Source: Giardia intestinalis
Taxonomy: Eukaryota
Strand: one strand, 5' to 3'
Length of the DNA stretch: 64,000 bases
Assembly: GCA_000002435.2 (NCBI GenBank)
Contig: CM018791.1
Within the stretch, counting starts at the first letter, position 1, and every line of letters starts with the position of its first letter. Of the stretch, positions 38,616 to 62,816 are shown piece after piece. The position numbers and the translations under genes are program-made. The notes under the pieces were generated by a model, which saw only the letters and a program-made list of their open reading frames with translations, made no database searches and was not told where the DNA came from.

Positions 38616-38684
38616 GTATAACCTCCCCTAAGTGAGGACGTGATGGACCTTAAGGGGCTCGAGGACCCCTCCGCCCCAATGCAA

Positions 38685-40967
38685 TCAAAGAACGCGGGGG
38701 TGTCTGTCTTCCCACTGGCTTCCACTACCTCTGGCCATCCAAGGATTCGGCCTATCCAAGGACGAATTGTTTCTGTCGGTGATGGCAGAGTATATCGGAT
38801 CCGAGTAGGGCTGTTCATGTCTCAGATGCGAGGGCTGCGCAGTGTGCGCCCTGTCAGTAAATGAAGTGCTTGTCAGTAACGACGGCGGGTCGAAGTGCGC
38901 CTGCGAGTCATTGTGGACCTCTGGATTCGCGTGGGCGGGATTAAAGTTGGTTCCGCGCGAGGTATACTCATTGTAGTCATCCGCCTGATTGGTGAAGGTG
39001 GTGCGCAAAGAAGCTTCACGAGGAACGTCTTTTGTTATGGGCGCAGGATGATCGTACTCTGTGTGAGACTCAAATGATGTCTTAATCTCATAGGGGTGCT
39101 CCACTTCCGCGGTCGAGTTGTAGAGGCTCTGGTGATCGCTAGCTTTACCGGACCCATACGAATCATTAGCGTTTCTAATGGTTGTATCGCGGCTCGCAGA
39201 CCTGCTTGTGTTAAAAGAGTGGTACGATCCGTTGGGCGTTGGATCGACAATCGGCCTAAGGCGACGACGGCGAGATGTAGAGAGCTCCGACATGGCCTGC
39301 ATATTCCTCATGCTATTATCAAGGCCAAAGCTGTTTGTTAGGCTTCTGTCACCACTCCTATCGCCATCTCTATCCTTGTCCTGTGTGCGTTCTAATTCAG
39401 TTCGCGAACGTGTTGTGTGCGATTGACTTCGAGAAGTAGAACGATCACGAAGCGTTCCTGTACGTCCATTTGGACTGTAAGTCTTTGTTGTCGTTGTCAC
39501 GGTGGTAACCTCTCTAACTATGTTGCTTTGATCAGCCATCGTTGAATCGTAGAGTCCGCTACTATTGGCACTAGCATGCATAGAATCGCTGGACAGATGC
39601 TGATTTGTGCGAGAGCGATGAGAGGTCAGGGCGCGCCTCTCTGTGGACTTGTTAGAAGCTGAGGTAGCCGACATTCCGTGGTAGTCAGATGTAGCCGAAT
39701 TTGGTGCTGCCCTCATAGTGCGTTGACGAAATACGAAATCAGGCTCTGTTTGAGGCATAAGTGGAGACTTTTCTCCCATGTACATCCTGTACGTCTTTAG
39801 TTGATCGGTTCTGCTGTCAAGAAGACTCTGCGTTTTCTGAAGCTTCTCAAGAGCCTTTTCATAGTCATCCTTCAGCCCGACAATAGAGGTGACCTGGTTC
39901 ATTTCTCTTTGTCTTTCTGCGCGCATGTCCTTTATCTGTCGTTCAAGCTCCTTGATGTAGGCAGCATTCTGCATCATTTCTGCGTTGATTCGATCACAGA
40001 TGTCTTCTGACGTCAGATTGTAACCTGTGTGGCTCTTGAAGACAGGGCTTCTTATGATGTACTCCAGCGCTGCAGCCTTCGTGCGCAGCTGTGCATTCTC
40101 CTCCTCGAGATCATAGATGTTTGACTTGTCTTTCTTAGCTGATGTTTTTGTTTTGCCCTTGCTGGTGTTTATTTGCGAATTAGCAGTCACTGAGGCCAGT
40201 TCCTCCAGTTGACTTTGTATGCGGTGCATATGATCGACGAAGCGGCTTATCAACAGATTAGAAGGCTCTGGACCCCCGTTGAACGTATTGAGGTAATAGT
40301 TCCGATCCTCGCCCATCACTTCTTGAAGACAGGTTCTAAAGCTAGCAATCTCTTTGTTAAGGTTCTCCACTTCAAAGGTGAGGTCAGGGACATCTGATTC
40401 TTGGCCTGTCAGGTGCTGCAAGGCAAGCCTGAGAAGTTTAGGTGCAAACATGTTCTTGCACTCTCCTGCCGTGCGGATCGCCTGGCGAATGTCGTCGGGC
40501 CTGAAGATACCAGAAAATCCCAGAGATATGACAATCCCTTGCTTCATAGACATGACTGCGTAGTCAAGAGCAGTGCGGTTGCTCTGGTCCTGCTCCCTAG
40601 TGCCGTATTTGAGCATAATATTGATAGAGTTAATGGCCCCAGCATGGGCCGCAACCATAAAGGCTGTCTTACCATCTGGCATGGTGTCCTTGTGCTCGAA
40701 GGGGGCCAAGATCTCTACCAGGCCCGCGTGGTCTGCTTCGCATGCCATCATCAATGCAGTAGAATGAGACGTCTGACTAAGTATTCCGCACTCCTTGGGA
40801 GCCAAGATTTTTACGGTTTCTGCGTCTCCCTGTCGCACTGCACACATCAAGCCCGTCTCACCGAAAGTGTTCCTCTTCCCCGCACATTCTTTCAAGTGCA
40901 CACTGACAACATCGTGTCGCCGCGTAGAAATCGCATGGAACCAATCTTGGGAAGAAAAGGTGGGCAT
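38685..40967 (-). CDS. Ankyrin-repeat plus coiled-coil protein (760 aa) with an S/T/R/D-rich low-complexity C-terminus; Giardia 21.1-like
   Basis: N-terminal TALM-type ankyrin repeats. Central heptad-rich region (EEENAQLRTKAAALEYI, IKELERQIKDMRAERQ). C-terminal DRDGDRSGDRS-like low complexity. ATG confirmed (cat at 40965-40967). Confidence 0.65.
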   Translation of the reverse strand: MPTFSSQDWFHAISTRRHDVVSVHLKECAGKRNTFGETGLMCAVRQGDAETVKILAPKECGILSQTSHSTALMMACEADHAGLVEILAPFEHKDTMPDGKTAFMVAAHAGAINSINIMLKYGTREQDQSNRTALDYAVMSMKQGIVISLGFSGIFRPDDIRQAIRTAGECKNMFAPKLLRLALQHLTGQESDVPDLTFEVENLNKEIASFRTCLQEVMGEDRNYYLNTFNGGPEPSNLLISRFVDHMHRIQSQLEELASVTANSQINTSKGKTKTSAKKDKSNIYDLEEENAQLRTKAAALEYIIRSPVFKSHTGYNLTSEDICDRINAEMMQNAAYIKELERQIKDMRAERQREMNQVTSIVGLKDDYEKALEKLQKTQSLLDSRTDQLKTYRMYMGEKSPLMPQTEPDFVFRQRTMRAAPNSATSDYHGMSATSASNKSTERRALTSHRSRTNQHLSSDSMHASANSSGLYDSTMADQSNIVREVTTVTTTTKTYSPNGRTGTLRDRSTSRSQSHTTRSRTELERTQDKDRDGDRSGDRSLTNSFGLDNSMRNMQAMSELSTSRRRRLRPIVDPTPNGSYHSFNTSRSASRDTTIRNANDSYGSGKASDHQSLYNSTAEVEHPYEIKTSFESHTEYDHPAPITKDVPREASLRTTFTNQADDYNEYTSRGTNFNPAHANPEVHNDSQAHFDPPSLLTSTSFTDRAHTAQPSHLRHEQPYSDPIYSAITDRNNSSLDRPNPWMARGSGSQWEDRHPRVL

Positions 40968-41096
40968 GGAGACAATAAACTTTTTTGGCGGGATTAAGTA
41001 AAGGTCGCCTCAGAAGTCAGATAATACAGATTACTTAAAGATTTACACTGAGCAAGTATACACCCCGGCAGGATTGCAGAAAACCCTACGTCGGCT

Positions 41097-44000
41097 ATGG
41101 TTCAAATCTTATCGACTCCTTGTAAAAGTTACAAAAAAGAAGGAGTCCGCGCTATGAATTTCTCCGTTAGTACCAAGAAAGAGTGGTTTGCAAGTATCCT
41201 CGCGCATCGCTATGAGACTGTGCGCGCTTCCATGAAGAAGTTCAGCAAGTCCACAGACGTGGATGGGGAAACTGGGCTCATGTTGGCCACTCGCAACAGC
41301 GATATGGAAATGATCCGGATTCTCATGCCCGTTGAGGCGAAGCTCACCAATAAGGATGGGCTGACCGCATTAATGATTGCTGCGATGCTTGATAACAAGG
41401 ATACGTGTGAAGTCCTTGCAAAGGTGGAGAGTGACGTCATCCTCAAGGATGGCCAGAATGCACTTATGATCGCGGCTGCTAATGGCTCTCTTTCCGCTAC
41501 CAAAATGCTCCTGCGCCACATACAGTACGTTACAGACGATCTGGGGTGGACGGCTCTTGACCACGCAGCAAACGGAGGACATCTCAAGTGCGTGCAACTG
41601 CTTGTTGCAGAAGTCCCGTCCCTTACTGTTAGCGACTTCGAGAACGCTATCTCTGTGGCCTATGACAAGGGCCATTCGCATGTCGTCGATTACCTAGCGT
41701 CTATGATTTACCAGGCAGAAAAGGACACATATGGTGATGATAGTATGACTACTGGCAGCCCGTCCGGACAGACAAGGTCGCGCTCTTCCAGCAAAAGTCA
41801 CAAGAAGAACTCGCTAGAACAAGAAAATAAATCGCTCAAACAGATGAATGCCAAGCTGAATGAAGAGGTCGAAAGGCTGCGAGCTACAGACAAGCGGCGG
41901 CTACGCGAAACACCAAACGATGCTGAGCTGGAGGCAAGAATTCAGGAACTGGAGCGCGAAAACGATATGCTGCGCCAGACAATCCAAAAGAGAGACACTG
42001 GCAATAGCTCTAAGCATGGCGACAACTTGGACGCTAAGTATGACGATCTTTGGCATCAGAAAGAGAAGCTTGAGCAGGAGCTAGAGCACACTCGCAGAAA
42101 TCTGGAGGAGGCAAAGTCAGCTTACAATCGTGTCGATGATACGGAGGTCACGGCCCTCCGAGCTGAGCTGATAGAAGCTAGGGAAATTCAGGAGCAGCGA
42201 ACGCAGACGATCTCAACACTAAACAGGCAGATCGATGACATGCGAAGAGAGCTAGATTATTTGCGTGGAGACAACAAAGCCACGCGTGGAGATGCAGAGA
42301 ACATGGCCACCAGCGCGTCCCAGTTGGCAGGAGAGCTTCAGGACGCTCGTCATGAAATAGACAGACTGAATACCACAATCACCGAGCTCAGACAAGCTGG
42401 GAATCGCAATCCATACGATTCGAATATGGCTGTCCTTCAGCAAGGCCACGCCCAGATGCAGGACATTCAGGCCGAGAACAGAGCGCTGAAGCAGGAGCTT
42501 GACTACTATAGAAACATGCAAGCCAATCAGCCACCGTATCCTGGCTTGGCAGCACAGTCCTCGATGACACACTCTTTTAGGGACTACACTTCACAAGAAA
42601 AGGTAGACCTTAACGGCCCACATGTAATAAGATCAAAGCAGGATCCAGAGAGGGAGCGGACGCTCGACCTACTTCGGTTAGAAAATGCAGATCTGCGTGA
42701 GGTCATAAGGATGCGCGTGAACCCTGTAGCCTTAGACACTGACCCAGAGTCCATTGATGGGAAAATACTTCGGTTAGATAAGCTTAGGGTCGAGAATGAT
42801 CTTCTTAGGCACGAAATCCTGCTTAAGCACTCAATTCTTACCCTCAACATGGAGAAGGATCTTCAGACCATCCGAGCAGAAAATGTTCTTCTGCGCGACG
42901 CGCTTCGGTCCCGCACCTCTACATATGTCCCTCAGGATCTTATTGACCAACTCACTCGACAGAATGACATTATTGCAGCGGAGAACATAGAATATAGGCG
43001 TGCCATTGGCCAAGCAGCTTCTGTGCACCAGCCGTCATACCAAGACGGATATTCGCCTACTCTCAACCCCACTCTGCATGGAAATGGCGGATCCATACCA
43101 CCAGCAGTTATCCAGGAGATAGAGTCTCTGCGGCAGGAGAATCAGACACTCAAGCATCAACTGGCGACTGCACAGCTTGCCCCTTCGGTAGAAACTTTAC
43201 ATAGCACGCAACTTGTACAGCCCAACCACCCACCACTTGAGCTTCAGCGCGAGCTGGATAGACTCACAAATGAGAATATCGATTTGCGCTCCACAATTCA
43301 TCGTCTTCAGAGCAATCAGAATCAACCCCTTGGTAACTCAGTGTCAGACGCAACAGAGATCAGCATGCTGCGCTCAGAAAATGCTAGCCTCAGAGAGGCC
43401 ATGCGCACTCAGGTGCATGACACTAGCACAGGACTGCTTCACAGCCTCACTACAGAGATTGAGACGTTAAAGCAGGAAAACATTATGCTCAAGAATGCCC
43501 TTCATAACCAGCCACCTCCACCACAGCCCCAATCTGTCATCACTAATGTTGTTCCTCCGGAGACCACCTACGAGCTTGAAAGACTCAGAAACGAAAATGT
43601 GACACTCAAAGTTGAGCTAGATAAAACGCGCGCTAGCCTAATGACAGAGATAAACTCCCGTACTATGCAGAGCCAGGCCTCCTCCCAGCATCTTTTAACC
43701 GAGCTGGACACATACAAAGCGCAGATTCAGCGTCTTGAGCGCGAGAATGAACTACTCAGGTCCCTTCCACCTCAAAACATGGGCATGATGGGGACAAACG
43801 GGCCCATGCAAATCGTTATTCCAGGCCTTACACCAAATCGCGAGAACGTTAAGCGGGACGCTGATGGAAACACCAACCTTATCCGTGCTGTTAAAAATAA
43901 CAACATGGACCTTGTTCGCCGATTCTGGCCTGTCGAAGCTGGAGTCCAAAATAACAGAGGCGAATCTGCTCTGATGACCGCAATAGAAATGAACAACACA

Positions 44001-45470
44001 GACGCAGCCCTAATGCTTGTTGAAAGGGAGTCCGGGCTTCAGGATGCGACGGGCCGCTCGGCGCTCATGTGTGCCGCTGAACGGGATAATTACGAGGTTG
44101 CAGTCGAGCTTGCGCAACATGAGCAGGGCTTGAAAATGCCAGATGGTACAACTGCACTCATGATAGCAGCATCCAAGAACCATGTGCGGATCTGCAAGCT
44201 ACTTTCGGAGCAAGAGGGTCAGATGCGGAACACAGAGGGCAACACGGCTCTGCACATTGCTGCAAATCTTGATCACGCAGAAGCATGCGCAGTACTTGTG
44301 GAGCATGCAGGGCTCATTAAGGACAAGGCGGGCCATCTTGCCCTTCACAATGCGTGCATCAGAGGGAATAAGAACGCAGCCCGCGCTCTCTATCGCAAAG
44401 AGAATGGCTTCCATCAGTTTGATGGTTGGACTCCGTTGATGGGTGCAGCGGCCATTGATGACATGACAGAGCTTCGGTTCTATCTTGAGAACTACGTCGG
44501 AATGAAGGACAAGGATGGCATGACTGCGCTCATGTATGCTGCGGTTTGCAACAATCCCAATGCCATTCTGCAGCTCTTGGAGAGGGAATCAGGAATGCGC
44601 ACTAACAAGGGCTACACCGCGCTCATGCTTGCAGCTGAGAAAAATAACGTCAATGCGGTGCAGGTCCTCATGCCCAAGGAGGCTACAATTATGAACAACG
44701 AACGGGAAACGGCCCTGATGATCGCATCTCGGGCAGGTGCCACAGAGTCTGCACGCATCCTGGTGCCCACAGAGGGTGGCATCCGCATGCTGGATGGAAC
44801 GTCCGCACTTAGACTCGCGCTCGATTACAACAACCAAGAACTAGCCCGGTTCTTAGCAGAGCGAGAAGGGATTGCTGTGGGCCAACTCACGCGTGACTTC
44901 CACGGCCGAACAGATCTCATGCGCGCCGCAGAAGAGGGAGACGCCGTATCGGTTTACTGTCTGTTGCCAAGTCAGGGCGGACTTGTTGATGTCGACGGGA
45001 AGACGGCGCTCATGTACGCCTGCGAGCGTGGGCATGTTCAGTGTGCAAGGCTGCTCAAGGAGAAGGAAGCAAGGATGCGCCGGACGATGCGCGACTCATG
45101 GGAGGGTCAGACGGCGCTTATGTTTGCAGCGCAGGCAGGAAGTGTGGAGATCGTAGACCTGCTAATCGACGTTGAGGGAGGCTGCTCTTGCGCCAACGGA
45201 TGGACTGCTCTGATGAGCGCAGCCAGATTCAACAAGGTGGCATGTGTTGAGGCGCTCCTGGACCGCGAGGCGCGCATGCAGACAAATGAGCGGTTCGCTG
45301 CTGGGGCAGGATACACGGCCCTTATGGCTGCCGCAGAATGGTCGTTCATTAAGTGTGTGCGCGCACTGCTTCCTCGCGAGCATGATATCAGGCACTCCAG
45401 CGGAAAGACCGCGATAGACTTTGCGAAGACGAGCACCATCCTCGAGTGCATCAACAACTACCGTCCTTAG
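41097..45470 (+). CDS. Ankyrin, long coiled coil, ankyrin protein (1457 aa), Giardia 21.1-like
   Basis: TALM-type ankyrin repeats occur at both ends. The roughly 650-aa central coiled coil has more than 10 copies of L(R/K)xENxxL(R/K)xxL. The start is uncertain. ATG 41097 is in a GC-rich context. An in-frame ATG at 41153 has an A-rich tract (acaaaaaagaagg) upstream. Confidence 0.6.
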   Translation: MVQILSTPCKSYKKEGVRAMNFSVSTKKEWFASILAHRYETVRASMKKFSKSTDVDGETGLMLATRNSDMEMIRILMPVEAKLTNKDGLTALMIAAMLDNKDTCEVLAKVESDVILKDGQNALMIAAANGSLSATKMLLRHIQYVTDDLGWTALDHAANGGHLKCVQLLVAEVPSLTVSDFENAISVAYDKGHSHVVDYLASMIYQAEKDTYGDDSMTTGSPSGQTRSRSSSKSHKKNSLEQENKSLKQMNAKLNEEVERLRATDKRRLRETPNDAELEARIQELERENDMLRQTIQKRDTGNSSKHGDNLDAKYDDLWHQKEKLEQELEHTRRNLEEAKSAYNRVDDTEVTALRAELIEAREIQEQRTQTISTLNRQIDDMRRELDYLRGDNKATRGDAENMATSASQLAGELQDARHEIDRLNTTITELRQAGNRNPYDSNMAVLQQGHAQMQDIQAENRALKQELDYYRNMQANQPPYPGLAAQSSMTHSFRDYTSQEKVDLNGPHVIRSKQDPERERTLDLLRLENADLREVIRMRVNPVALDTDPESIDGKILRLDKLRVENDLLRHEILLKHSILTLNMEKDLQTIRAENVLLRDALRSRTSTYVPQDLIDQLTRQNDIIAAENIEYRRAIGQAASVHQPSYQDGYSPTLNPTLHGNGGSIPPAVIQEIESLRQENQTLKHQLATAQLAPSVETLHSTQLVQPNHPPLELQRELDRLTNENIDLRSTIHRLQSNQNQPLGNSVSDATEISMLRSENASLREAMRTQVHDTSTGLLHSLTTEIETLKQENIMLKNALHNQPPPPQPQSVITNVVPPETTYELERLRNENVTLKVELDKTRASLMTEINSRTMQSQASSQHLLTELDTYKAQIQRLERENELLRSLPPQNMGMMGTNGPMQIVIPGLTPNRENVKRDADGNTNLIRAVKNNNMDLVRRFWPVEAGVQNNRGESALMTAIEMNNTDAALMLVERESGLQDATGRSALMCAAERDNYEVAVELAQHEQGLKMPDGTTALMIAASKNHVRICKLLSEQEGQMRNTEGNTALHIAANLDHAEACAVLVEHAGLIKDKAGHLALHNACIRGNKNAARALYRKENGFHQFDGWTPLMGAAAIDDMTELRFYLENYVGMKDKDGMTALMYAAVCNNPNAILQLLERESGMRTNKGYTALMLAAEKNNVNAVQVLMPKEATIMNNERETALMIASRAGATESARILVPTEGGIRMLDGTSALRLALDYNNQELARFLAEREGIAVGQLTRDFHGRTDLMRAAEEGDAVSVYCLLPSQGGLVDVDGKTALMYACERGHVQCARLLKEKEARMRRTMRDSWEGQTALMFAAQAGSVEIVDLLIDVEGGCSCANGWTALMSAARFNKVACVEALLDREARMQTNERFAAGAGYTALMAAAEWSFIKCVRALLPREHDIRHSSGKTAIDFAKTSTILECINNYRP

Positions 45471-45542
45471 GGCAGAGGAGATGTAAACACACCGCACCAA
45501 AGCAATTTACTAGAGACGATCAGAAGAATAAGTCTAAGGTGG

Positions 45543-45953
45543 TTAGCAAACTCCGCACATGGCCAGCGAGCCGATTATGATGACGCAGATAGCACACACT
45601 ACAAGTACAACAAAAGCGACGTGAGTGAACCAGGTTTCTACTGGCATACTGGAGGACCAATTCTCATACCAAGGCTGCGCCAGGCCCCACCAAAGCATCA
45701 TGGCACCGCGGAAAAGGTGGTGGGCGATAAAGCCAGACCAGGAGTTCTCGATGAAGGAGTCCCCAAAGCCCGTCCCGAAATCAGAGATGAGAGTGATGAC
45801 CATCCAGAAGAGGAGGGCAAGCTGGTAGACGTGATTCCCGACATGGTCGGTGCCCAGCAGCATCTTAGTGAGCATACCAATGCCGCCTGCAGCAGCCCCA
45901 ACGACCGTGAACCACTTCGCAGTCTCACCCGCGCAACCGGACGCCTTAGTCAT
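45543..45953 (-). CDS. Small 4-TM membrane protein (136 aa), paralogue of the next gene
   Basis: Four hydrophobic helices by eye. ATG confirmed with a very AT-rich upstream (aaatttaaaaaatactg...ATG). Similar to the downstream 137-aa ORF (KWFTVVGAAAGG versus KWISVGSCTAGA; LALLFWMVITLISDFG versus LVLSMWLVLMGLADFS). Confidence 0.55.
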   Translation of the reverse strand: MTKASGCAGETAKWFTVVGAAAGGIGMLTKMLLGTDHVGNHVYQLALLFWMVITLISDFGTGFGDSFIENSWSGFIAHHLFRGAMMLWWGLAQPWYENWSSSMPVETWFTHVAFVVLVVCAICVIIIGSLAMCGVC

Positions 45954-46068
45954 TTTAAATTCCTCGCAACAGTATTTTTTAAATTTGTCCGCAAGCCGAT
46001 TTTCGCATTGCAGTCGCCGATCTCAGGCAACAAGCACGTTATAGATCGAGCATGGAGAGTGGGCGGAG

Positions 46069-46482
46069 TCAGGCGCAAAAGTGAAGAGCTATTCCCAAAA
46101 TCATGACCAAGGCTCCTCCCGTGAGTAAGATGATCCAAAGCACCTTTGTGAGAATGAAAAGTGTTGTAACAGATGCTAAAAGCTGCGTCCAGGTAGTGTA
46201 GCAAGGGAGCATAAGCGAGATTATGATCATACAAGCGCCCCGCTTTACGGGCATTCTTCCTGTCTCTGAGATATACTTAGCATTGAGCGTGTTTGCCGGC
46301 TCCAAACTGAAATCCGCAAGACCCATGAGGACAAGCCACATGGATAAGACTAAGTGTAGCAGAAAGTCGCCCACATATGAGCCCTGGAAAAGAAGAGACG
46401 CAGATGCAAGAGCCCCTGCTGTGCAGGAACCAACGCTGATCCACTTGATCACGCTTGAGAGGACATCTGTGCGATCAGCCAT
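46069..46482 (-). CDS. Small 4-TM membrane protein (137 aa from the internal ATG), tandem paralogue of 45543-45953
   Basis: The ORF-track N-terminal extension (to 46689) overlaps the divergent 491-aa gene. The ATG at 46480-46482 (cat on the plus strand) has an AT-rich upstream (attttaaagcagattttggg) and yields a protein the size of its paralogue. Confidence 0.5.
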   Translation of the reverse strand: MADRTDVLSSVIKWISVGSCTAGALASASLLFQGSYVGDFLLHLVLSMWLVLMGLADFSLEPANTLNAKYISETGRMPVKRGACMIIISLMLPCYTTWTQLLASVTTLFILTKVLWIILLTGGALVMILGIALHFCA

Positions 46483-46553
46483 TGAGCGGTGGCCCAAAAT
46501 CTGCTTTAAAATTACATCGAAGCTAGGCGAAAAGTCTGGACAGTCTGAGTGGC

Positions 46554-48029
46554 ATGACAAATGCGTACATGGGGGCGACAGACATAGAGAGCACCGCTCT
46601 GCAGGAGCGATGTTCAACTCTGCAGAAGGAAAACTATGAGTTGAGACAGCGGGTCTTTTCTCTTGAGAAGAAACTTGCAGACACGTCAAACAGCCTTAAA
46701 GATGAGTGTGCACGCGAGAGGGCCCGGTACAGAGCTCTAGAGGCGAAGATGGATGAATTTCAGCTTACAACAGAAAGGCATGCTACAAAGCGTGTTGAGG
46801 ACCTTATGCTTGAATGTAGGGATTTAAAGGCCAACTTATCACGAGAGCGGGACCGCACAAAAGCAATGGAGCAGGAGCTCGATGCCCTGTCCAGCTATGC
46901 CAGCGAACGGATCAACCTTTCTCGCCGCCTGGAAATAGCAGAGTCTCGAGTGTCAGACCTAGAAACTCTCCTCGATGTAGATCGAAAGCAGTTCCTTGCA
47001 GAGGCGGCAGAGCAGCGGGCAATGCTCGAAAGCAGGCACCGTGCAGAGGTCCAGGCTGCCGTTGAGGAAGCAATCCGGGCCACCAATGAGAACATTTCCA
47101 CCGAAACGCGCCTCCTCAGAGACCAGAACCAAATCTTGCAGAAGTCAGTTCTTATTTTGAAGGGTTCGGGCGGCAATACAGGTACGAGGCGGGTTCCCAC
47201 AATCAGCAGGATGGAGTCAGAGCTTCCTGGTACCAGCGTGAGCCGCTCACGAACGACCTCTCAGCTCTCCATGGCCAAGGCATCTGTCTCCGGGCATATA
47301 AACTGCGACGAAATAGAAAAGTTTGAAATGGACATCAGCAGAGGTTTAGAAATGAGGATAGGAGAACTCAAAATGACTGTCAAGCATCTTCAAGCAAAAC
47401 TCGAAGAGCAGGCGTCCGATTTTAAGCGGGAGAAAAACGAGGCTAGTGAGTTTATCGCCAATCTCATCTCGAAGTTCAACAAGGAACGTGCAGATCTCCT
47501 CTTCGAAATAAAGTCTCTCGAAAAGCTCGTCTATGCTAAGTGCAAAGAACTCTACAAGCTGCGGACTTTGGCGCAAATGCTTCTTCAGCGCAGGACTGAT
47601 CTGGAAGCGTTTTTATCTAAGCTCTTGGCTGCAACCCTCGACCTGGAGACGAGGGCTATCAGCCCCTACACGATGGCTGAGTACTTTGACGTTGAAATGG
47701 GCCGCCGGCGGTCCTGGTCGCCGTCTCCACCACCAGATTACCGATACACTAGCGGTGCCATCCCCCGAAGCATTTCCTCGGGTTCCGCTCCTGCAGCAGG
47801 AGCGGGGACTTGTCGGGAACTTGCCGCCATCATGACCCGGACTAACCTGAATTCAAACGAGGCTCTCTCCTCCATCACACCGAAGATGCCGCGCACCATG
47901 GCAGAAATGGAGCGCTCTCTAAATACTGCTATCCGAGTGCGCTCTGATCCACTGATAAATTCATTGAGTTCACAAGAGGTTGCTAATATTGTACGCGACT
48001 GGATTACGAAAATAGACATCCCCCTCTAG
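46554..48029 (+). CDS. Coiled-coil protein, 491 aa
   Basis: Heptad-rich throughout (LQKENYELRQRVFSLEKKL, LETLLDVDRKQFLAEAAEQ). An alternative in-frame ATG lies at 46569. The stop is 10 bp from the stop of the convergent 3147-aa gene. Confidence 0.55.
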   Translation: MTNAYMGATDIESTALQERCSTLQKENYELRQRVFSLEKKLADTSNSLKDECARERARYRALEAKMDEFQLTTERHATKRVEDLMLECRDLKANLSRERDRTKAMEQELDALSSYASERINLSRRLEIAESRVSDLETLLDVDRKQFLAEAAEQRAMLESRHRAEVQAAVEEAIRATNENISTETRLLRDQNQILQKSVLILKGSGGNTGTRRVPTISRMESELPGTSVSRSRTTSQLSMAKASVSGHINCDEIEKFEMDISRGLEMRIGELKMTVKHLQAKLEEQASDFKREKNEASEFIANLISKFNKERADLLFEIKSLEKLVYAKCKELYKLRTLAQMLLQRRTDLEAFLSKLLAATLDLETRAISPYTMAEYFDVEMGRRRSWSPSPPPDYRYTSGAIPRSISSGSAPAAGAGTCRELAAIMTRTNLNSNEALSSITPKMPRTMAEMERSLNTAIRVRSDPLINSLSSQEVANIVRDWITKIDIPL

Positions 48030-57559: not shown

Positions 57560-59740
57560 TTAGTGCGAGAGCGTGATCTTGACGTCAACAGCTGCAATGC
57601 CTGGGTTCTTCCCCTCCTTCTGCTCCTCGAAGACAAGAAGCGGGTTCATGTCCAGTTCTGTGATCTCAGAGAAGTCGTTGACCAGCTGGGCAAGCTTGAC
57701 CATCGTATCAAGAAGCCCCTTGATGTCGCTTCGAGGCTGGCCACGCACACCGTTGAGGATCTCGTAGATCTTCGTCTTCTTGAGTTGCGCCTCTGCGTCC
57801 TCTCTGTCATACTTGTAGGCCAAATCGAACGCGACGTCCTTGATGTAATTAGCATAGATGCCACCCTGGCCAACCATGATCATGGGGCCCCATGTGGGAT
57901 CGCGGTTGACACCAACAATCATCTCAGTTGTCTTTTGGTACTTGGAGAAGTCGACCATCTGCTGGATCTCGACGCCCTTAAGAACCGCACCCTTGGGTCC
58001 GTTCTTCGCGGCATTGGCCATGATCTCCTTGAACGCGGCTGTCGCCTCGGCCTCTGTCTTTATGTTGAGCTTCACACCGCCGCAGTCACTCTTGTGGATG
58101 ATCTGGGGAGAGACAATCTTCATAACGACAGGGAACGTGACCTCCTTGGCGAACGTCGCAGCCTCTGCCTCGTTGGTTGCCAGCTTCGTTTTGGGCGCAT
58201 TCACGCCATAGAGGGTGAAGATCTCAGACGTCTCGTGGGAGAGCAGGACCGTGCGGCCATCAGCGCGGGCGCCAGCGATGATCTTCTTGATGCGCTCGTT
58301 GTCCACCTTAAAGACTTCAACCTTCTTTTCAGCAAGGGTCTTACGATTCTTGATCTTCCTGTACTTGAGCACGGCCCCAGTCGCGTGGATTGCAGGCTCA
58401 GGGAACGGGAAGACAGGCATCTTGGCATTATTCAGAATCTTCGATGGCTCCTGCATCGTGAGACCGCCCATGAAGGCGCTGACGACCAGCCTGTCAGGAT
58501 ACTTGGCGTACATCCTTGTGCATAGCTCGGCAACCTCGCAAGGCTTGGTCTGCCCCTGAGGAGTGACGAGGATGACGGCGCCGGCGACGGTCTCTGGGGG
58601 CTCCTTGAAGCAGATCTCAAGCGCATCTTCGTAGCGTTTAGGCGGTGCGTCGCCAACAATGTCGACAGGGTTCTTCACAGAAGCTTCGCCGGGAAGGACC
58701 TTGGCAAGCGCCTCCTTTGTCTTGTCGGAAAGCGCTGCCATCCCAACGTGGTAAGTCTCGAAGGCATCAGTCGTGACGATTCCAGGGCCACCCGCATTTG
58801 TGACAATGACAAAGTTGTCACCCTTCGGAAGGCGGTGGGAGACGAAGAGACGGCCAAGGTCAAAAAGGTCAGACATGGTTGCCGCACGCAGGACGCCAGC
58901 CTTCTCGAAGGCAAGGTCGAATGCGATATCGTTCCCAGCCAGGGCCCCCGTGTGGGATGAGGCGGCAGCGGCACCGGCAGCCGATGTCCCGGACTTCAAG
59001 ATGATGACAGGCTTCTTGTGGACGCAGGTGGGGATCTGCTCAAGGAACTTCCTGCCATCGACGATGGACTCAAGGTAAAGGAGGATGATATCGGTGTTCG
59101 GGTCCTCCGCGACCTCCATGATGAGGTCGACTTCATCCACGTCAGCCTTGTTTCCAAGGCTGATGAAGTTGGAGAAGCCGATTCCATTGGTCAGAGCCCA
59201 ATCAAGGATGGAAGTGAGCATGGCACCGGACTGAGAGAGAAAAGCGATGCTGCCCTTGGACGGCTTGGCAGAAGCGAAGGTGCAGTTCAGGTTCGGGGTA
59301 ACAATACCGAGGCAATTAGGTCCGACGAGACGAATCCCAGCGTCCTTGCAAATCTTGGTGAGGTCTTGCTCCATCTGCACACCTTCGCCGCCAATCTCCT
59401 TGAAGCCAGCGGTGATGACGACGAGGCTCTTAACCTTCTTCTGAGCACACTCCTTTGCCGCAGCAAGGACGGCCTTTGAGGGGATAACGACAATGACGAC
59501 GTCGATGCTGTCAGGGACATCAAGCACGCTCTTATAAGTCTTGTACCCCAGGATCTCAGTGGCCGTCGGATTTATGGGATAGACCTTCCCAGTGTAGCCG
59601 GACTCCTTTATGTTTGTCACGACCGTGTTCCCGACTTTCCCGGCGTTGGGGGAGGCGCCGATGACCGCAACAGAAGCAGGGTTTGTCAAGAAGGAAAGCT
59701 TGCCCATTTTCTTATACTTTGTTGAATAATTTTGACGCAT
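57560..59740 (-). CDS. ACS: Acetyl-CoA synthetase (ADP-forming), fused alpha-beta type, 726 aa
   Basis: N-terminal CoA-binding signature VAVIGASPNAGKVG. Phosphohistidine loop SSHTGALAG. C-terminal ATP-grasp half. The ORF-track start at 59749 is TTG. The first ATG (cat at 59738-59740) gives 726 aa, the reported length of Giardia ACS. A second ATG at 59707 has an even more AT-rich initiator. AGTAAAC poly(A) signal 6 nt after the TAA stop. Confidence 0.85.
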   Translation of the reverse strand: MRQNYSTKYKKMGKLSFLTNPASVAVIGASPNAGKVGNTVVTNIKESGYTGKVYPINPTATEILGYKTYKSVLDVPDSIDVVIVVIPSKAVLAAAKECAQKKVKSLVVITAGFKEIGGEGVQMEQDLTKICKDAGIRLVGPNCLGIVTPNLNCTFASAKPSKGSIAFLSQSGAMLTSILDWALTNGIGFSNFISLGNKADVDEVDLIMEVAEDPNTDIILLYLESIVDGRKFLEQIPTCVHKKPVIILKSGTSAAGAAAASSHTGALAGNDIAFDLAFEKAGVLRAATMSDLFDLGRLFVSHRLPKGDNFVIVTNAGGPGIVTTDAFETYHVGMAALSDKTKEALAKVLPGEASVKNPVDIVGDAPPKRYEDALEICFKEPPETVAGAVILVTPQGQTKPCEVAELCTRMYAKYPDRLVVSAFMGGLTMQEPSKILNNAKMPVFPFPEPAIHATGAVLKYRKIKNRKTLAEKKVEVFKVDNERIKKIIAGARADGRTVLLSHETSEIFTLYGVNAPKTKLATNEAEAATFAKEVTFPVVMKIVSPQIIHKSDCGGVKLNIKTEAEATAAFKEIMANAAKNGPKGAVLKGVEIQQMVDFSKYQKTTEMIVGVNRDPTWGPMIMVGQGGIYANYIKDVAFDLAYKYDREDAEAQLKKTKIYEILNGVRGQPRSDIKGLLDTMVKLAQLVNDFSEITELDMNPLLVFEEQKEGKNPGIAAVDVKITLSH

Positions 59741-59822
59741 CAGAATCAATTTCCTTTTTCGGAATCATGCACTGACGATGACGGGCCCGAAAAGCCTTAT
59801 TTACACATACACAGGAGATAAG

Positions 59823-60500
59823 TTAATAGCCTCCGAAGCTATAGCGGCCGCTTTGTGTTCCTGAGAAACCCTGCTGTGCAGGCCTCCCGGCGCTAATTGG
59901 CCTATATGCGGAGGATGGCGACTGGGAGCCGTGGGGACGATTGCTGAGCGTAGGCGTACGAGGCCCCGACTGACCAGAAAAGCTACCTCGATTTGTCATC
60001 GGGCTGGCGGCGGGGGCATATCTAGAAGGCCCCGAGACCGGTCGAGTCCCTACAGATCCTTGCTGCGTGGGCGTTCGAGACTGTACATAGTCAGAGCCCC
60101 TGGAAGACATGCTCCCACGAGGCTGGGCACTTCGGGACATTCCTGGAGAGGAGCCTGATGAGTAGCTTGAGCTCATGCGATTCGATTGAGACATCCTAGC
60201 TGATGTGTGTGCCTGTTGTTGTGCCTGGGACATCTGTGGGGTCTGCTGCTGTGAATACATATGCGGTTGGGTATGACCATACGCCTGCTGGGCCGTATGT
60301 GCCGCAGACTGCTCTCCTGCCTGTTGCGCAGCAGCAGCGGCAGCTTCTGCAGCCAACTCTTCCAGCTTCCGAGGCGGTGTCGGTGGCCGGAGCTTTGTCA
60401 AACTGCCAGACCTGACAGTAGGATCGCTAGACGTACGATTGTAGGCGCCCTGACCTGCTTGACCCATCTTCGTAAGGGCTACATTTGCAAGAAGGGGTGC
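59823..60500 (-). other. GC-rich low-complexity segment encoding the Q/S/P/G/M-rich C-terminal tail of the phosphatase-like protein
   Basis: AQQAYGHTQPHMYSQQQTPQMSQAQQQAHTSARMSQSNRMSSSYSSGSSPGMSRS... through ...SGRYSFGGY. Confidence 0.6.
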
Positions 60501-61808
60501 TGCATTCTGCCTTCCCACTTTCTGATTTTCATAGTTAGACCCAAGTGCCTTTCCATAACTTGGATTGGCACTGCGCATGCCACCAATCCCTTGGCTCTTT
60601 TGTGTCGCCGACATCTGGGAAATGTGAACAGGTGGCATCCCCATTGTGCTTTGTGGCCTGCGTGCAGACGTTGGCCGGTCACTCTGCCGAGAGATATCGC
60701 TCCTTTCAGAGATGGACTCGTTGCGGACATCTTCGCCACGTGGAGCCACGAGGATGGCCTCAAACTCATCACGGGGCACATATATGGACGACGCATCATA
60801 GGCGCTCCGTGTCGCTGTGCCGACCTTGGCAAGAATACTAACAGGCTTTGCAACAACAGCATAGCCCTCGAGGGAACTTGTAACCGGCGCTAGGTACCCG
60901 TCTGATCGGCGTTTGTGCAGAGGGAGATCCAGGTCAAAACTAATCGCAGGAAGCAGCGATGGATCCATCCGCACGGGAATACATCTCACCTGTTGCCCCG
61001 AGCGATAGGAGGGGGTCCGGGGTCTGAAAATCAATGACGATTGTGAGCCTACTGGACGCCCATTGGCATCAAAGTTAGCATATGTGGATGGTATCTGAGC
61101 CGTCACTAGGCCGTCCCGCCAGGTTATGTGCTTCTCTGGAGCCGGAGGGACTTCTACATGAATCTGGCAGTCAGAGAGGATAGCATGGATTCCCTTCTGC
61201 CTCACTAACTCTTCTGGATTGGGTTGTGCCATGACTGCGTTGAGAAAAGTATTCCGATGCAAGATTTCCTGGTGGTTAAGCTTAAGTCCTCTGGTGCTTC
61301 CAAAAATATCCTTGAACTCTCCGTATTTTGTGCGCCGGCGATTTGCAAATTCGTGAAGCTGACGTACATAATTCTGATGAGGCTTGGAGCTGAACCTTTT
61401 TGTAGTGATGAACTGAAGGGCTCTGTGAGGCGGCCAATGGAACCTGTGTACTAAGTATCCCGCCAATAAAACAACAGACCGCGAATCACCGTTGACAGAG
61501 TGGATCAAAACACACTCGTCTTTTTCGACCGCCTCGTTGACAAAACGAACGACCTGCGTAATCGTCTCATCCCTAGAATCAAACATGGTGCTATTCCCGT
61601 CCTCGTCAAATTGATATGAAAGATATCTAATCCCCACACCCTGAAAGCAATTTGTAAAGGTGTGGCTACAGCAATTAATCACTCGCGTCACTGAATTAGT
61701 AAATACAAAGTCTCGGTCCTCCGCTGCATAGCATCCACCCACAAATATGTTATCTAAAACACGGTTGGCCATGAATAGGGGCACATCGAGCATCTCACTT
61801 GAGGCCAT
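59823..61808 (-). CDS. Dual-specificity-phosphatase-like protein with the catalytic Cys replaced by Ser (candidate pseudophosphatase), plus a roughly 230-aa Q/S/P/G-rich disordered tail; 661 aa
   Basis: N-terminal DNIFVGG...NSVTRVINC. Active-site region VLIHSVNGDSRSVVLLAGYLVHRF aligns to the DSP consensus VLVHCxAGxSRS, with Ser (codon tct) at the Cys position. ATG confirmed with an AT-rich upstream. Confidence 0.6.
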   Translation of the reverse strand: MASSEMLDVPLFMANRVLDNIFVGGCYAAEDRDFVFTNSVTRVINCCSHTFTNCFQGVGIRYLSYQFDEDGNSTMFDSRDETITQVVRFVNEAVEKDECVLIHSVNGDSRSVVLLAGYLVHRFHWPPHRALQFITTKRFSSKPHQNYVRQLHEFANRRRTKYGEFKDIFGSTRGLKLNHQEILHRNTFLNAVMAQPNPEELVRQKGIHAILSDCQIHVEVPPAPEKHITWRDGLVTAQIPSTYANFDANGRPVGSQSSLIFRPRTPSYRSGQQVRCIPVRMDPSLLPAISFDLDLPLHKRRSDGYLAPVTSSLEGYAVVAKPVSILAKVGTATRSAYDASSIYVPRDEFEAILVAPRGEDVRNESISERSDISRQSDRPTSARRPQSTMGMPPVHISQMSATQKSQGIGGMRSANPSYGKALGSNYENQKVGRQNAAPLLANVALTKMGQAGQGAYNRTSSDPTVRSGSLTKLRPPTPPRKLEELAAEAAAAAAQQAGEQSAAHTAQQAYGHTQPHMYSQQQTPQMSQAQQQAHTSARMSQSNRMSSSYSSGSSPGMSRSAQPRGSMSSRGSDYVQSRTPTQQGSVGTRPVSGPSRYAPAASPMTNRGSFSGQSGPRTPTLSNRPHGSQSPSSAYRPISAGRPAQQGFSGTQSGRYSFGGY

Positions 61809-61869
61809 AATTTCTTTAAACTTTGAATTTTTATCTCGCTAATGCCCACCACAACATGCACAGAGCCGG

Positions 61870-61894: not shown

Positions 61895-62500
61895 TTAGAA
61901 GAACTTCGACACCGTCTTTATTGTACTAAGTTCAAATCGAATGTCTGCAAGTTCCTTCTGGATCGCGAGGAGACACGAGGCGTCGCCACCAGCTTTTCTG
62001 TCATTAGAATCACATGCAAGAGACTCCATTGTACTTTTGGCCTCGTCCCTAAACGCCTCTAAGGTGTGTCGTGTGTCATCTATCTGTTCCTGAAGGTTTA
62101 AGATGTCATCGCTGTTCGCTTCCAGAACGTCCCGCACCTTTGCTAGGGTCTGTGTGAGCTGGCGAAACTGCCGCTGAGTCTCCAAGTGCCGTGTCTCCTG
62201 TGTTTCAATGAAACTGTTAATTCCCATCTCATCAAGAACCTCTCGTACTAGGTTCTTTATGAAGGTCTTGCTCACTCCTGTGGCCTCCATGCTTGCACTT
62301 TGCTCCAGCTCGTTGGCTGGGGTCGTTGCAGACGCCGTAAGGGCTTTGCTCTCTGTGTATCTCTCGCGAGCATTGAGATTTGAGCTGTGGGTGTGCGGCC
62401 GCCTGGCCGGTGACTGGGGTCGGTAAATGTAATCTCTATGAACTGCCGCCGCCTCCGAGAGATGCGGGTTCATGCATTTGACCGTCAAAAACTTGGACAT
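61895..62500 (-). CDS. Hypothetical coiled-coil protein, 201 aa
   Basis: ATG confirmed (cat at 62498-62500). AGTAAAT poly(A) signal about 20 nt after the stop. The C-terminal half has heptad periodicity. Confidence 0.5.
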   Translation of the reverse strand: MSKFLTVKCMNPHLSEAAAVHRDYIYRPQSPARRPHTHSSNLNARERYTESKALTASATTPANELEQSASMEATGVSKTFIKNLVREVLDEMGINSFIETQETRHLETQRQFRQLTQTLAKVRDVLEANSDDILNLQEQIDDTRHTLEAFRDEAKSTMESLACDSNDRKAGGDASCLLAIQKELADIRFELSTIKTVSKFF

Positions 62501-62504
62501 TTTT
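62501..62504. promoter_or_regulatory. Head-to-head start codons separated by 4 bp (tttt); the initiators must lie inside each other's coding sequence
   Basis: cat (62498-62500), tttt, ATG (62505-62507). Confidence 0.45.
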
Positions 62505-62816
62505 ATGCCGTATCGTCTGGATGTTTACGTGCCAGAGGAAGCTGTGGAGACTGTTAAAGAGGCTCTTTTTGCAGCGGGGGCAGGGAAAATAGGCAACTAT
62601 GACTGCTGTTGTTATACAACAAAAGGTGTTGGCCAGTTTAGGCCGCTTCCAGGCTCCAATCCAGCCAAGGGTAGCTTGGGTAACGTATGTGTCTGTGCCG
62701 AAGATAAGCTAGAGATGATCGTCGCTGACGGTTGTATAGACTCTGTGATAGAGGCCTTGCGAAAAGCTCACCCCTACGAGACACCGGCTTTCCAGTATTG
62801 GAAGGTCAACTCGTAG
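62505..62816 (+). CDS. Small PII/CutA-like protein resembling the inserted domain of NIF3 (YqfO/SA1388-type) proteins; 103 aa from the ATG at 62505
   Basis: VYVPEEAVETVKEALFAAGAGKIGNYDCC...GxGxFRPLPGSNP...HPYETPAF matches the NIF3 insert pattern from memory (VPE..LE.VKEAL..AGAG.IGNY..CSF...G.G.FRP.EG.NP...HPYEE.AY). The ATG at 62505 has a cattttt context. The ORF-track start at 62472 would overlap the divergent 201-aa gene. AGTGAAC poly(A) signal 17 nt after the stop. Confidence 0.5.
   Translation: MPYRLDVYVPEEAVETVKEALFAAGAGKIGNYDCCCYTTKGVGQFRPLPGSNPAKGSLGNVCVCAEDKLEMIVADGCIDSVIEALRKAHPYETPAFQYWKVNS

What the first reader, a model, noticed from the sequence alone, without database searches (positions are those of the whole stretch)
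61470..61515. Phosphatase-fold protein with active-site Cys replaced by Ser (HSVNGDSRS instead of HCxxGxxRS)
The rest of the DSP motif, including the Arg of the P-loop and the downstream AGYLV helix, is intact. A Cys-to-Ser change at this position is the classic substrate-trapping mutation. This is therefore likely a natural pseudophosphatase and phosphoprotein-binding scaffold, consistent with its long disordered Q/S-rich tail. A single G-to-C sequencing error (tgt to tct) would produce the same result and should be excluded.
Basis: partly seen in the sequence, partly recalled or inferred. Interest (0 to 1): 0.55.

Follow-up and report, generated by a model that had tools for sequence, protein, structure and literature searches.

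The report
Ancient Cys-less phosphatase-like protein of Giardia
This Giardia gene encodes a dual-specificity-phosphatase-fold protein whose catalytic cysteine is genuinely a serine (not a sequencing error), and it belongs to a very strongly conserved family of serine-type "dead" phosphatases found in many protists.

Summary
ORF 59823-61808 (- strand, 661 aa) is Giardia intestinalis WB XP_001705743.1, annotated "putative Phosphatase". It has a DSP domain whose P-loop reads HSVNGDSRS, and the Ser104 codon TCT lies at 61497-61499.

A sequencing error is excluded:
- The same protein occurs in 64 independently assembled read sets.
- Assemblages A, B and E, 14 of the 15 listed cluster variants (the other is a 100-aa fragment), G. 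muris, Spironucleus, Hexamita, Kipferlia and Aduncisulcus all have Ser.
- One relative uses a different Ser codon, TCG.

Ser is a family trait. In an exhaustive profile search, 145 of 151 aligned relatives (ciliates, Colpodella, Willaertia, Fornicata) have Ser. The three with Cys sit among Ser-bearing relatives. His, Gly, Arg and the general-acid position are retained.

The domain is under extreme constraint: 100% identity between assemblages A and B over aa 1-200 despite saturated synonymous divergence, and 96% identity to G. muris.

The AlphaFold model (pLDDT 93.6) is a canonical DSP fold. The tail is predicted disordered and carries short motifs conserved among diplomonads.

The best reading is a natural pseudophosphatase that still binds phospho-ligands. 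Activity and binding are untested. It is a new member of a known kind (STYXL1 and STYXL2 are Cys-to-Ser cases), so interest is moderate.

The parts
59823..61808 (-). Complete CDS, 661 aa plus stop. It is Giardia intestinalis WB XP_001705743.1 / UniProt A8BPG1, 'putative Phosphatase'.
   Evidence: ORF list; exact-sequence look-up.
61233..61778 (-). Extended DSP-like domain, aa 11-192. This is the unit conserved across the whole protist family and includes a C-terminal extension beyond Pfam DSPc.
   Evidence: Most of the top 150 profile hits align over about positions 3-8 to 182-184 of the 184-position profile. AF2 pLDDT 93.6. Foldseek matches to DUSP13, VHR, MKP5 and SSH2, TM up to 0.9.
61341..61748 (-). 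Pfam DSPc match, aa 21-156.
   Evidence: PF00782, E = 1.4e-13, 51.3 bits.
61476..61502 (-). P-loop HSVNGDSRS (aa 103-111). His103, Gly107, Arg110 and Ser111 are kept; Asp108 is specific to Fornicata.
   Evidence: Sequence. Column counts: H 133/151, G 146/152, R 151/152, S/A 128/152.
61497..61499 (-). Codon TCT = Ser104, at the position of the catalytic Cys.
   Evidence: Ser in 145 of 151 family members.
61596..61610 (-). D-loop FDEDG (aa 67-71). Glu69 aligns with the general-acid Asp of SSH2 and MKP5 and is flanked by Asp68 and Asp70.
   Evidence: Alignments to 2nt2 and 9o8w. Column 69 is D 114 and E 22 of 150.
61236..61274 (-). Family-signature C-terminal helix HQEILHRNTFLNA (aa 179-191), outside Pfam DSPc.
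   Evidence: Helix in both AF2 models. N186 127/131, T187 124/131, N190 129/130.
60744..61136 (-). Middle region, aa 225-355, with motifs conserved in diplomonads and fornicates: WRDGL 230, FRPRTPSY 261, SFDLD 290, DGYL 303, PVSIL 322.
   Evidence: Alignments; motif scan. pLDDT is below 50 before about aa 275 and 57-67 over about aa 281-350, with a few short strands. No PDB sequence relative.
59826..60746 (-). Predicted disordered S/A/Q/G/P/R-rich tail, aa 355-661, with several S/T-P sites.
   Evidence: pLDDT about 31-49; composition and sites; dN/dS 0.022 between assemblages A and B.
60366..60389 (-). RPPTPPRK motif (aa 474-481). It is conserved in the diplomonad orthologues and P0027, and degenerate in Aduncisulcus and Kipferlia. 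It fits a PxxP / proline-directed S/T-P-x-R site; function inferred only.
61809..61835 (-). AT-rich stretch directly upstream of the ATG (gataaaaattcaaagtttaaagaaatt). It resembles Giardia's short AT-rich initiator region (own knowledge).
   Evidence: Sequence.
59799..59805 (-). TGTAAAT, 18 nt after the stop codon. It resembles the Giardia polyadenylation signal AGTRAAY (own knowledge).
   Evidence: Sequence.

Best explanation
The gene encodes a genuine, anciently Cys-less dual-specificity-phosphatase-fold protein, that is, a natural pseudophosphatase. The fold and the phosphate-binding cradle are intact: the His-x-x-x-Gly-x-x-Arg-Ser P-loop and an acidic D-loop residue. The thiolate nucleophile needed for the Cys-phosphoenzyme mechanism has been Ser since before the divergence of the fornicate, alveolate and discobid members of the family. 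The most likely mode of action is that the domain binds a phosphorylated ligand without hydrolysing it, as engineered C-to-S trapping mutants do. The diplomonad-specific middle region and the long disordered tail carry conserved short motifs (FRPRTPSY, PVSIL, RPPTPPRK) and many S/T-P sites, and they would recruit or be regulated by other proteins. The whole would therefore act as a phospho-dependent adaptor, anchor or competitor. Shown here: the substitution is real and ancient, the fold is canonical, the remaining catalytic-site residues are retained, and purifying selection is extreme. Inferred: lack of activity, phospho-ligand binding, and a scaffold role for the tail.
For: Real, not an error:
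- The identical protein occurs in 64 Logan assembly blocks.
- Ser is present in assemblages A, B and E and in 14 of the 15 listed cluster variants; the other is a 100-aa fragment without the motif.
- TCT is kept while flanking codons change synonymously between assemblages A and B, and a distant relative uses TCG.

Ancient:
- All fornicate orthologues have Ser: G. muris, S. salmonicida, two Hexamita paralogues, Kipferlia and Aduncisulcus.
- In the exhaustive profile search, 145 of 151 aligned family members have Ser. Named taxa are Euplotes, Halteria, Strombidinopsis, Colpodella, Willaertia and Papus.
- The three Cys members each have Ser-bearing nearest neighbours at 58-70% identity.

Pocket retained: R110 151/152, G107 146/152, H103 133/151, general-acid column D/E 136/150.

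Fold: pLDDT 93.6; Foldseek TM up to 0.9 to MKPs, SSH2 and VHR.

Constraint:
- dN/dS between A and B is 0.012 overall.
- Zero nonsynonymous changes occur in aa 1-200, against 79 synonymous differences.
- The neighbouring acetyl-CoA synthetase gives 0.024.
- Identity to G. muris is 96% and to Spironucleus 69% over aa 1-200.

Precedent: STYXL2 (an N-terminal DSPc with Cys replaced by Ser, followed by a long C-terminal region) and MK-STYX/STYXL1 (Phe-Ser in the motif) are accepted pseudophosphatases (PMC11147509, PMC8269279). Restoring Cys reactivates STYX and MK-STYX (PMC8269279).
Against: - No biochemical test exists. Reviews warn that sequence alone does not prove inactivity (PMC8269279).
- An Asp in the P-loop (GDSR, invariant in Fornicata) could disfavour binding of a dianionic phosphate.
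- In Giardia the residue aligned to the general acid is Glu, not Asp.
- In STYXL2 the characterised function maps to the C-terminal part, not the DSPc domain (PMC11147509), so a phosphate-binding role does not follow automatically.
- No partner, localisation or phenotype is known for the Giardia protein; no paper was found.
- A euglenozoan-like subgroup tolerates S, C, D and G at this position. That argues the side chain itself is not critical, and it fits a non-catalytic role but also a pocket-independent one.
Confidence: 0.6

Rival explanations
1. It is a scaffold that no longer uses the pocket. The DSP fold serves only as a rigid protein-protein interaction module. The P-loop residues are kept for fold stability, and function resides in other surfaces (for example the family-specific C-terminal helix) or in the tail.
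For: In STYXL2 the functional activity maps to the C-terminal fragment lacking the DSPc domain (PMC11147509). The most family-specific invariant residues (N186, T187, N190, W125) lie outside the P-loop. Asp108 in the P-loop is unfavourable for phosphate binding. The catalytic position tolerates S, C, D and G in one subgroup.
Against: Arg110, Gly107, His103 and the acidic D-loop residue are among the best-conserved columns across lineages as distant as alveolates, discobids and metamonads. That is hard to explain by stability alone. The domain, not the tail, is the most constrained part.
Confidence: 0.25
2. It is an active enzyme with non-canonical chemistry. Either Ser104 acts as an alkoxide nucleophile, or the conserved neighbouring Cys46 (the 'VINC' strand) acts as a relocated catalytic residue, on a protein, lipid, glycan or nucleotide phosphate or on a different substrate class.
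For: All auxiliary catalytic residues (His, Arg, Ser/Ala after Arg, acidic D-loop) are retained with very strong purifying selection, which is the pattern expected of an enzyme. Cys46 is Cys in 131 of 152 family members, whereas ordinary DUSPs have V, A or T there (DUSP sequences). Reviews note pseudoenzymes with migrated catalytic residues (PMC10211241).
Against: Engineered C-to-S mutants of DUSPs are used as inactive substrate traps; the PDB entries hit here are such mutants. STYX and MK-STYX gain activity only when Cys is restored (PMC8269279). D and G occur at this position in close relatives. The geometry of Cys46 could not be checked because no model coordinates were available.
Confidence: 0.08
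3. It is a sequencing or assembly error (TGT read as TCT), or a strain-specific mutation in a normal active phosphatase.
Against: Ser is found in 64 independent assembly blocks, in assemblages A, B and E, in G. muris and in all other diplomonads. Ser is encoded by TCG in another lineage, and it is the family-wide state in 145 of 151 members.
Confidence: 0.01

Closest known systems
STYXL2 (formerly DUSP27), a vertebrate pseudophosphatase
   Same: It has an N-terminal DSPc domain in which the catalytic Cys is replaced by Ser, followed by a long C-terminal region. It is classed as a pseudophosphatase and acts through protein binding (PMC11147509, PMC8269279).
   Different: STYXL2 is specific to vertebrate striated muscle. 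Its known function maps to the C-terminal part, whereas here the DSP domain is the most constrained part. The protist family has its own signature (the C-terminal ...LxRNT[FY]LN helix and the N-C motif) and is reported here from ciliates, Colpodella, Heterolobosea and Fornicata.
MK-STYX / STYXL1
   Same: It carries a natural Cys-to-Ser change in the DUSP signature motif (F-S instead of H-C) and has regulator roles without catalysis (PMC8269279, PMC10761714). One stand-alone relative found here (P0006) even reads I-F-S-T-N-G.
   Different: STYXL1 has an N-terminal CH2/rhodanese domain and has also lost the His (PMC8269279). The Giardia protein starts directly with the DSP domain, has no other Pfam domain and keeps the His.
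STYX (prototype 'dead' DSP)
   Same: It is a DSP fold with the catalytic Cys substituted and the Arg retained, and is a phosphoserine/threonine/tyrosine-binding module (PMC2175518, PMC8269279).
   Different: STYX has Gly, not Ser. The family profile scores STYX (2r0b, E = 1.8e-17) worse than the active DUSPs SSH2, DUSP10 and DUSP22 (about 1e-23), so there is no specific relationship.
Active atypical DUSPs and MKP catalytic domains (DUSP22, SSH2, DUSP10/MKP5, DUSP13, VHR)
   Same: These are the best sequence and structure matches. They share the fold and the positions of the P-loop, D-loop and helices.
   Different: They use a Cys nucleophile. They lack the C-terminal RNT[FY]LN helix and the conserved Cys after the strand-3 Asn.
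Arabidopsis LSF1 (own knowledge, not checked here)
   Same: It is a DSP-family protein with the catalytic Cys replaced by Ser that acts as a binding scaffold rather than a phosphatase.
   Different: It is a plant glucan-phosphatase relative with PDZ and carbohydrate-binding modules. No relationship was tested.

Membership tests
Dual-specificity phosphatase fold superfamily (Pfam PF00782 DSPc) | Significant match to the DSPc profile above the curated threshold | tested here: met
   E = 1.4e-13, 51.3 bits against a cut-off of 33.5, aa 21-156.
Dual-specificity phosphatase fold superfamily (Pfam PF00782 DSPc) | Canonical DSP three-dimensional fold | tested here: met
   AF2 pLDDT 93.6, pTM 0.90. 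Foldseek E about 1e-9 to 1e-10, target-normalised TM up to 0.9 with MKP2, MKP5 and SSH2. This is a predicted structure, not a solved one.
Catalytically active Cys-based DSP/PTP enzymes | Cys nucleophile in the HCx5R motif | tested here: not met
   Ser104 (TCT) occupies that position. Ser is conserved in all orthologues.
Catalytically active Cys-based DSP/PTP enzymes | P-loop Arg and Gly, with His preceding the nucleophile | tested here: met
   H103, G107 and R110 are present; R is conserved in 151 of 152 family members.
Catalytically active Cys-based DSP/PTP enzymes | General-acid Asp in the D-loop | tested here: inconclusive
   The aligned residue is Glu69, flanked by Asp68 and Asp70. The family column is D 114 and E 22 of 150.
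Catalytically active Cys-based DSP/PTP enzymes | Measurable phosphatase activity | not testable with these tools
   Needs recombinant protein assays.
STYX-type pseudophosphatases (DSP fold with substituted nucleophile, phospho-ligand binding) | DSP fold with the catalytic Cys naturally replaced while the Arg is retained | tested here: met
STYX-type pseudophosphatases (DSP fold with substituted nucleophile, phospho-ligand binding) | Binds phosphorylated ligands without hydrolysis, and activity is restored by putting Cys back | not testable with these tools
   Criterion taken from PMC8269279. It requires biochemistry.
STYXL1 / MK-STYX orthologue | N-terminal CH2/rhodanese domain before the DUSP domain | tested here: not met
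   The DSP domain begins at about aa 11 and the only other Pfam hit is a sub-threshold DSP-PTPase family.
STYX orthologue | Gly at the catalytic position and a specific sequence relationship to STYX | tested here: not met
   Ser, not Gly. The profile scores STYX 2r0b lower than active DUSPs.
STYXL2 orthologue | Specific sequence relationship (reciprocal best hit or phylogeny) to vertebrate STYXL2 | not tested
   No STYXL2 sequence or structure was reachable. Only the architecture is similar (PMC11147509).
Protist Ser-type DSP-like family defined here (alveolates, discobids, fornicates) | Full-length match to the 184-position profile, including the C-terminal ...E-x-L-x-R-N-T-[FY]-L-N helix, W125 and Ser at the catalytic position | tested here: met
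   The Giardia protein is a seed member. Most of the top 150 hits align across nearly the whole 184-position profile. Column statistics are and clusters.

The most novel reading that the evidence does not exclude
The Giardia protein may represent an unrecognised, very old family (possibly dating to the last eukaryotic common ancestor). Its members are Ser-type DSP-like proteins present in alveolates, Heterolobosea, euglenozoan-like lineages and Fornicata. They share a signature C-terminal helix and a conserved Cys next to the dead active site. In Giardia the protein is under stronger constraint than the core enzyme encoded by the neighbouring gene. On this reading the family is an essential, dedicated phospho-reader, or an enzyme with non-Cys chemistry, with a conserved cellular role not yet described in any organism.
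Probability: 0.25. Interest if true: 0.7.

Novelty: new member of a known kind. Interest (0 to 1): 0.45.

Why it matters
Databases label this protein 'putative Phosphatase', 'Dual specificity phosphatase', or even 'polynucleotide 3'-phosphatase/5'-hydroxy-kinase'. Counting it as an active enzyme inflates Giardia's small phosphatase complement.

If it is a phospho-ligand binder, it is among the most constrained signalling proteins examined in this locus. It shows no amino-acid change in 200 residues between assemblages whose synonymous sites are saturated. That makes it a good candidate for an essential regulator and a handle for finding its phosphorylated partner.

The wider point is that Cys-to-Ser is the ancestral state of a family spread over several eukaryotic supergroups. 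Pseudophosphatases of this type would then be old, selected inventions of protists and not only animal curiosities.

Tried and rejected
- **Sequencing error:** rejected.
- **Giardia-specific loss of the Cys:** rejected. Ser is family-wide.
- **Specific kinship with STYX:** rejected on profile scores.
- **STYXL1-like architecture:** rejected, because there is no rhodanese domain.
- **Naming more family members:**
  - The first word-indexed search returned only six non-Giardia relatives. The Giardia cluster itself was not listed.
  - The profile search returned mostly unnamed environmental ciliate-like proteins.
  - The third search, with a discobid-type profile, gave no named taxa.
- **AFDB Foldseek search** to find named structural relatives, including STYXL2: the library was not installed.
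- **Literature:**
  - There were no hits for the accession numbers.
  - No paper was found linking this Giardia protein to pseudophosphatases.
  - One broad multi-taxon query was uninformative.
  - The P. falciparum phosphatome paper reports no STYX homologues.
  - The TriTryp phosphatome lists one 'STYX'-class DSP per species, for example Tb10.70.6300 at 555 aa. Its sequence could not be compared, so this is only a lead.
- **Middle region aa 224-359:** no PDB sequence relative and only low-to-moderate AF2 confidence, so no fold is assigned.
- **Spatial checks:** the position of Cys46 and of the C-terminal helix relative to the pocket could not be examined, because structure prediction returns no coordinates.
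Full report
**1. What is in the sequence**

The finding lies in an uninterrupted 661-codon ORF on the minus strand, 59823-61808. Read on that strand, 61502-61476 is cac tct gtc aac ggt gat tcg cgg tct = HSVNGDSRS (aa 103-111).

The gene looks expressed and complete. An AT-rich stretch abuts the ATG, and TGTAAAT lies 18 nt after the stop codon. The comparison of these with Giardia initiator and poly(A) signals rests on my own knowledge.

Exact-sequence look-up identifies the protein as Giardia intestinalis WB XP_001705743.1 / A8BPG1, 'putative Phosphatase'. Its neighbours are ADP-forming acetyl-CoA synthetase and a methionine aminopeptidase.

**2. Is it the catalytic position of a real phosphatase domain?**

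Yes.
- Pfam DSPc matches aa 21-156 at E = 1.4e-13, 51.3 bits against a cut-off of 33.5.
- phmmer against the PDB aligns Ser104 with residue 88 of DUSP22 and with the catalytic residue of SSH2. Tellingly, the top-scoring chains are engineered C-to-S mutants.
- An AlphaFold2 model of aa 11-192, built on a 35-sequence family alignment, has mean pLDDT 93.6 and pTM 0.90.
- That model superposes on DUSP13, VHR, MKP5, SSH2 and MKP2 with target-normalised TM-scores up to about 0.9.

**3. Sequencing error?**

No.
- The identical 661-aa product is called on contigs in 64 blocks of independently assembled public read sets.
- The 90% identity cluster contains the reference proteins of assemblage A (WB), B (GS, EET01172) and E (P15, EFO63921) and further variants. 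Fourteen of the 15 listed members carry LIHSVNGDSRS. The remaining one is a 100-aa fragment without the motif.
- At the DNA level, assemblage-B contigs keep TCT although four of the eight neighbouring motif codons differ synonymously: GTC/GTT, AAC/AAT, TCG/TCC and CGG/CGT.
- A distant stand-alone relative (P0006) encodes the Ser with TCG, two substitutions away from a Cys codon.

**4. Orthologues and the wider family**

The word-indexed search found Spironucleus salmonicida EST42812 (64% identity), two Hexamita inflata paralogues and three unnamed proteins. All have [HF]-S at the site.

An exhaustive HMM search with the seven-sequence domain profile gave 7709 hits at E <= 1e-3 and 55 at E <= 1e-30. 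Most of the best 150 align across nearly the whole 184-position profile, including about 35 residues beyond Pfam DSPc.

In the hmmalign of these sequences the key columns are as follows:

| Column | Counts |
|---|---|
| Catalytic position | Ser 145, Cys 3, Asp 2, Gly 1 (of 151) |
| His103 | 133/151 |
| Gly107 | 146/152 |
| Arg110 | 151/152 |
| Residue after Arg | S or A in 128/152 |
| General-acid column | D 114, E 22 (of 150) |
| Trp125 | 154/154 |
| Asn186 / Thr187 / Asn190 (C-terminal helix) | 127/131, 124/131, 129/130 |

The general-acid column was assigned from the alignments to SSH2 and MKP5.

Named members are:
- Fornicata: G. muris, Kipferlia bialata and Aduncisulcus paluster.
- Ciliates: Euplotes/Moneuplotes, Halteria and Strombidinopsis.
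- Colpodella angusta, Willaertia magna (Heterolobosea) and Papus ankaliazontas.
- The kinetoplastid Cryptobia borreli, which has Cys.

Average-linkage clustering gives an alveolate-type group (82 sequences), a discobid-type group (33) and the fornicate group (12). Each Cys-bearing sequence has Ser-bearing nearest neighbours at 58-70% identity. By parsimony, Ser is the family's ancestral state. No formal tree was built.

**5. Strength of selection**

| Comparison | Region | Result |
|---|---|---|
| Assemblage A (window) vs B (L004) | whole protein | dS = 1.25, dN = 0.015, dN/dS = 0.012 |
| A vs B | aa 1-200 | 79 synonymous and 0 nonsynonymous differences |
| A vs B | aa 200-345 | dN/dS = 0.004 |
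| A vs B | tail | dN/dS = 0.022 |
| A vs B, adjacent acetyl-CoA synthetase | first 295 codons | dN/dS = 0.024, 94.6% identity |
| vs G. muris | domain / middle region / tail | 96% / 85% / 52% identity |
| vs Spironucleus | domain / middle region / tail | 69% / 50% / 18% identity |

The first four rows are, the synthetase row and the last two. This is the signature of an indispensable, functionally precise domain, not a decaying one.

**6. The rest of the protein**

The full-length AF2 model has the DSP domain at high confidence. Residues 199-275 are mostly below pLDDT 50, about aa 281-350 reach 57-67 with a few short strands, and aa 355-661 are at about 31-49, that is, predicted disordered.

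The tail is S/A/Q/G/P/R-rich and holds eight S/T-P sites. WRDGL, FRPRTPSY, SFDLD, DGYL, PVSIL and RPPTPPRK are conserved among diplomonads but not in the wider family. The middle region has no PDB sequence relative.

**7. Mechanism**

Established PTP/DSP chemistry requires the Cys thiolate. C-to-S mutants are the standard inactive substrate traps, and restoring Cys reactivates STYX and MK-STYX (PMC8269279). This protein lacks only that residue and keeps the phosphate cradle under very strong selection.

I therefore rank the readings as follows:

| Reading | Confidence |
|---|---|
| Pseudophosphatase that still binds a phospho-ligand, with the tail and middle motifs as recruitment or regulatory elements | about 0.6 |
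| Scaffold that does not use the pocket | about 0.25 |
| Enzyme with non-Cys chemistry, for which the conserved Cys46 next to the active-site strand is the most interesting lead | about 0.08 |
| Sequencing error | about 0.01 |

**8. Comparison with what is known, and novelty**

Natural Cys-to-Ser DSP pseudophosphatases are known: STYXL1/MK-STYX and STYXL2 (PMC8269279, PMC11147509, PMC10761714).
- The Giardia protein resembles STYXL2 in architecture (N-terminal Ser-type DSPc followed by a long tail), but orthology could not be tested.
- It is not STYXL1-like, because it has no rhodanese domain.
- It is not specifically related to STYX.

No paper in the searchable library describes this Giardia protein or the protist family as a pseudophosphatase. 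The TriTryp 'STYX' DSP (Tb10.70.6300, 555 aa) may be a relative, but this is only a lead.

**Verdict.** The finding is a new member of a known kind. It adds that the substitution is ancient, family-wide and under exceptional constraint. Interest is 0.45.

Noticed in passing
window 61671-61673 (- strand, Cys46 in 'VINC'): The residue after the conserved strand-3 Asn is Cys in 131 of 152 family members. The ordinary DUSPs aligned have V, A or T there. This strand should lie next to the strand ending in the P-loop, so Cys46 may sit beside Ser104 like the 'backdoor' Cys of some PTPs.
   Followed up: no
window 61236-61274 (- strand, aa 179-191): The family-specific C-terminal helix ...E-x-L-[HL]-R-N-T-[FY]-L-N lies outside Pfam DSPc. 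N186, T187 and N190 are almost invariant across alveolate, discobid and fornicate members. Where it packs relative to the pocket is unknown.
   Followed up: partly
relatives P0063, P0069, P0118, P0144 (discobid-type / 'LDN[DE]QWMLRNT' subgroup): In this discobid-type subgroup (it includes the kinetoplastid Cryptobia), the catalytic position is S in most sequences but C (Cryptobia borreli, P0069), D (P0063) or G (P0144) in close relatives. This suggests the side chain is not critical, or that there were occasional reversions.
   Followed up: partly
L006 360-992 (P0006, SRR31929897, locus GC 64%): This is a stand-alone 210-aa version of the domain with no tail. Its motif is I-F-S-T-N-G-D-S-R-A, with the same F-S-T as human MK-STYX. 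Its Ser codon is TCG, and it lies next to a small GTPase gene in a compact unidentified eukaryotic genome.
   Followed up: partly
database records of the orthologues: The annotations are inconsistent. The assemblage-B record ESU42642.1 is named 'Polynucleotide 3'-phosphatase / Polynucleotide 5'-hydroxy-kinase'. The others are called 'Phosphatase, putative' or 'Dual specificity phosphatase'. None flags the missing Cys.
   Followed up: no
P0026 (Kipferlia bialata GIQ80162.1, 1028 aa): The DSP-like domain is joined to what looks like half of an ABC transporter. The record is marked 'LOW QUALITY PROTEIN', so this is probably a fused gene model.
   Followed up: no
window 59826-60746 (- strand, aa 355-661): The tail is predicted disordered. 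Yet it has dN/dS 0.022 between assemblages A and B and only 18-21% identity to Spironucleus and Hexamita. Constraint is therefore strong within Giardia but turnover is rapid between genera.
   Followed up: partly
window 61895-62500 (-) and 62472-62816 (+): Two small ORFs of 201 aa and 114 aa on opposite strands overlap by 29 nt at their 5' ends. Neither has a Pfam match. The 201-aa one is only partly conserved in assemblage B, where a 131-aa product is called.
   Followed up: partly
window 36001-48000: GC rises to 0.50-0.53, against about 0.47 elsewhere. AT skew reaches +0.12 to +0.15 at 40-48 kb.
   Followed up: no
window 57560-59749 (-): The mechanical ORF for acetyl-CoA synthetase starts at a TTG (729 aa). 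However, public gene calls for the same protein are 726 aa. An assemblage-B call (715 aa, cut by the end of the locus) begins MGKLSF, 14 residues into the mechanical ORF. The TTG start is therefore probably not real.
   Followed up: partly
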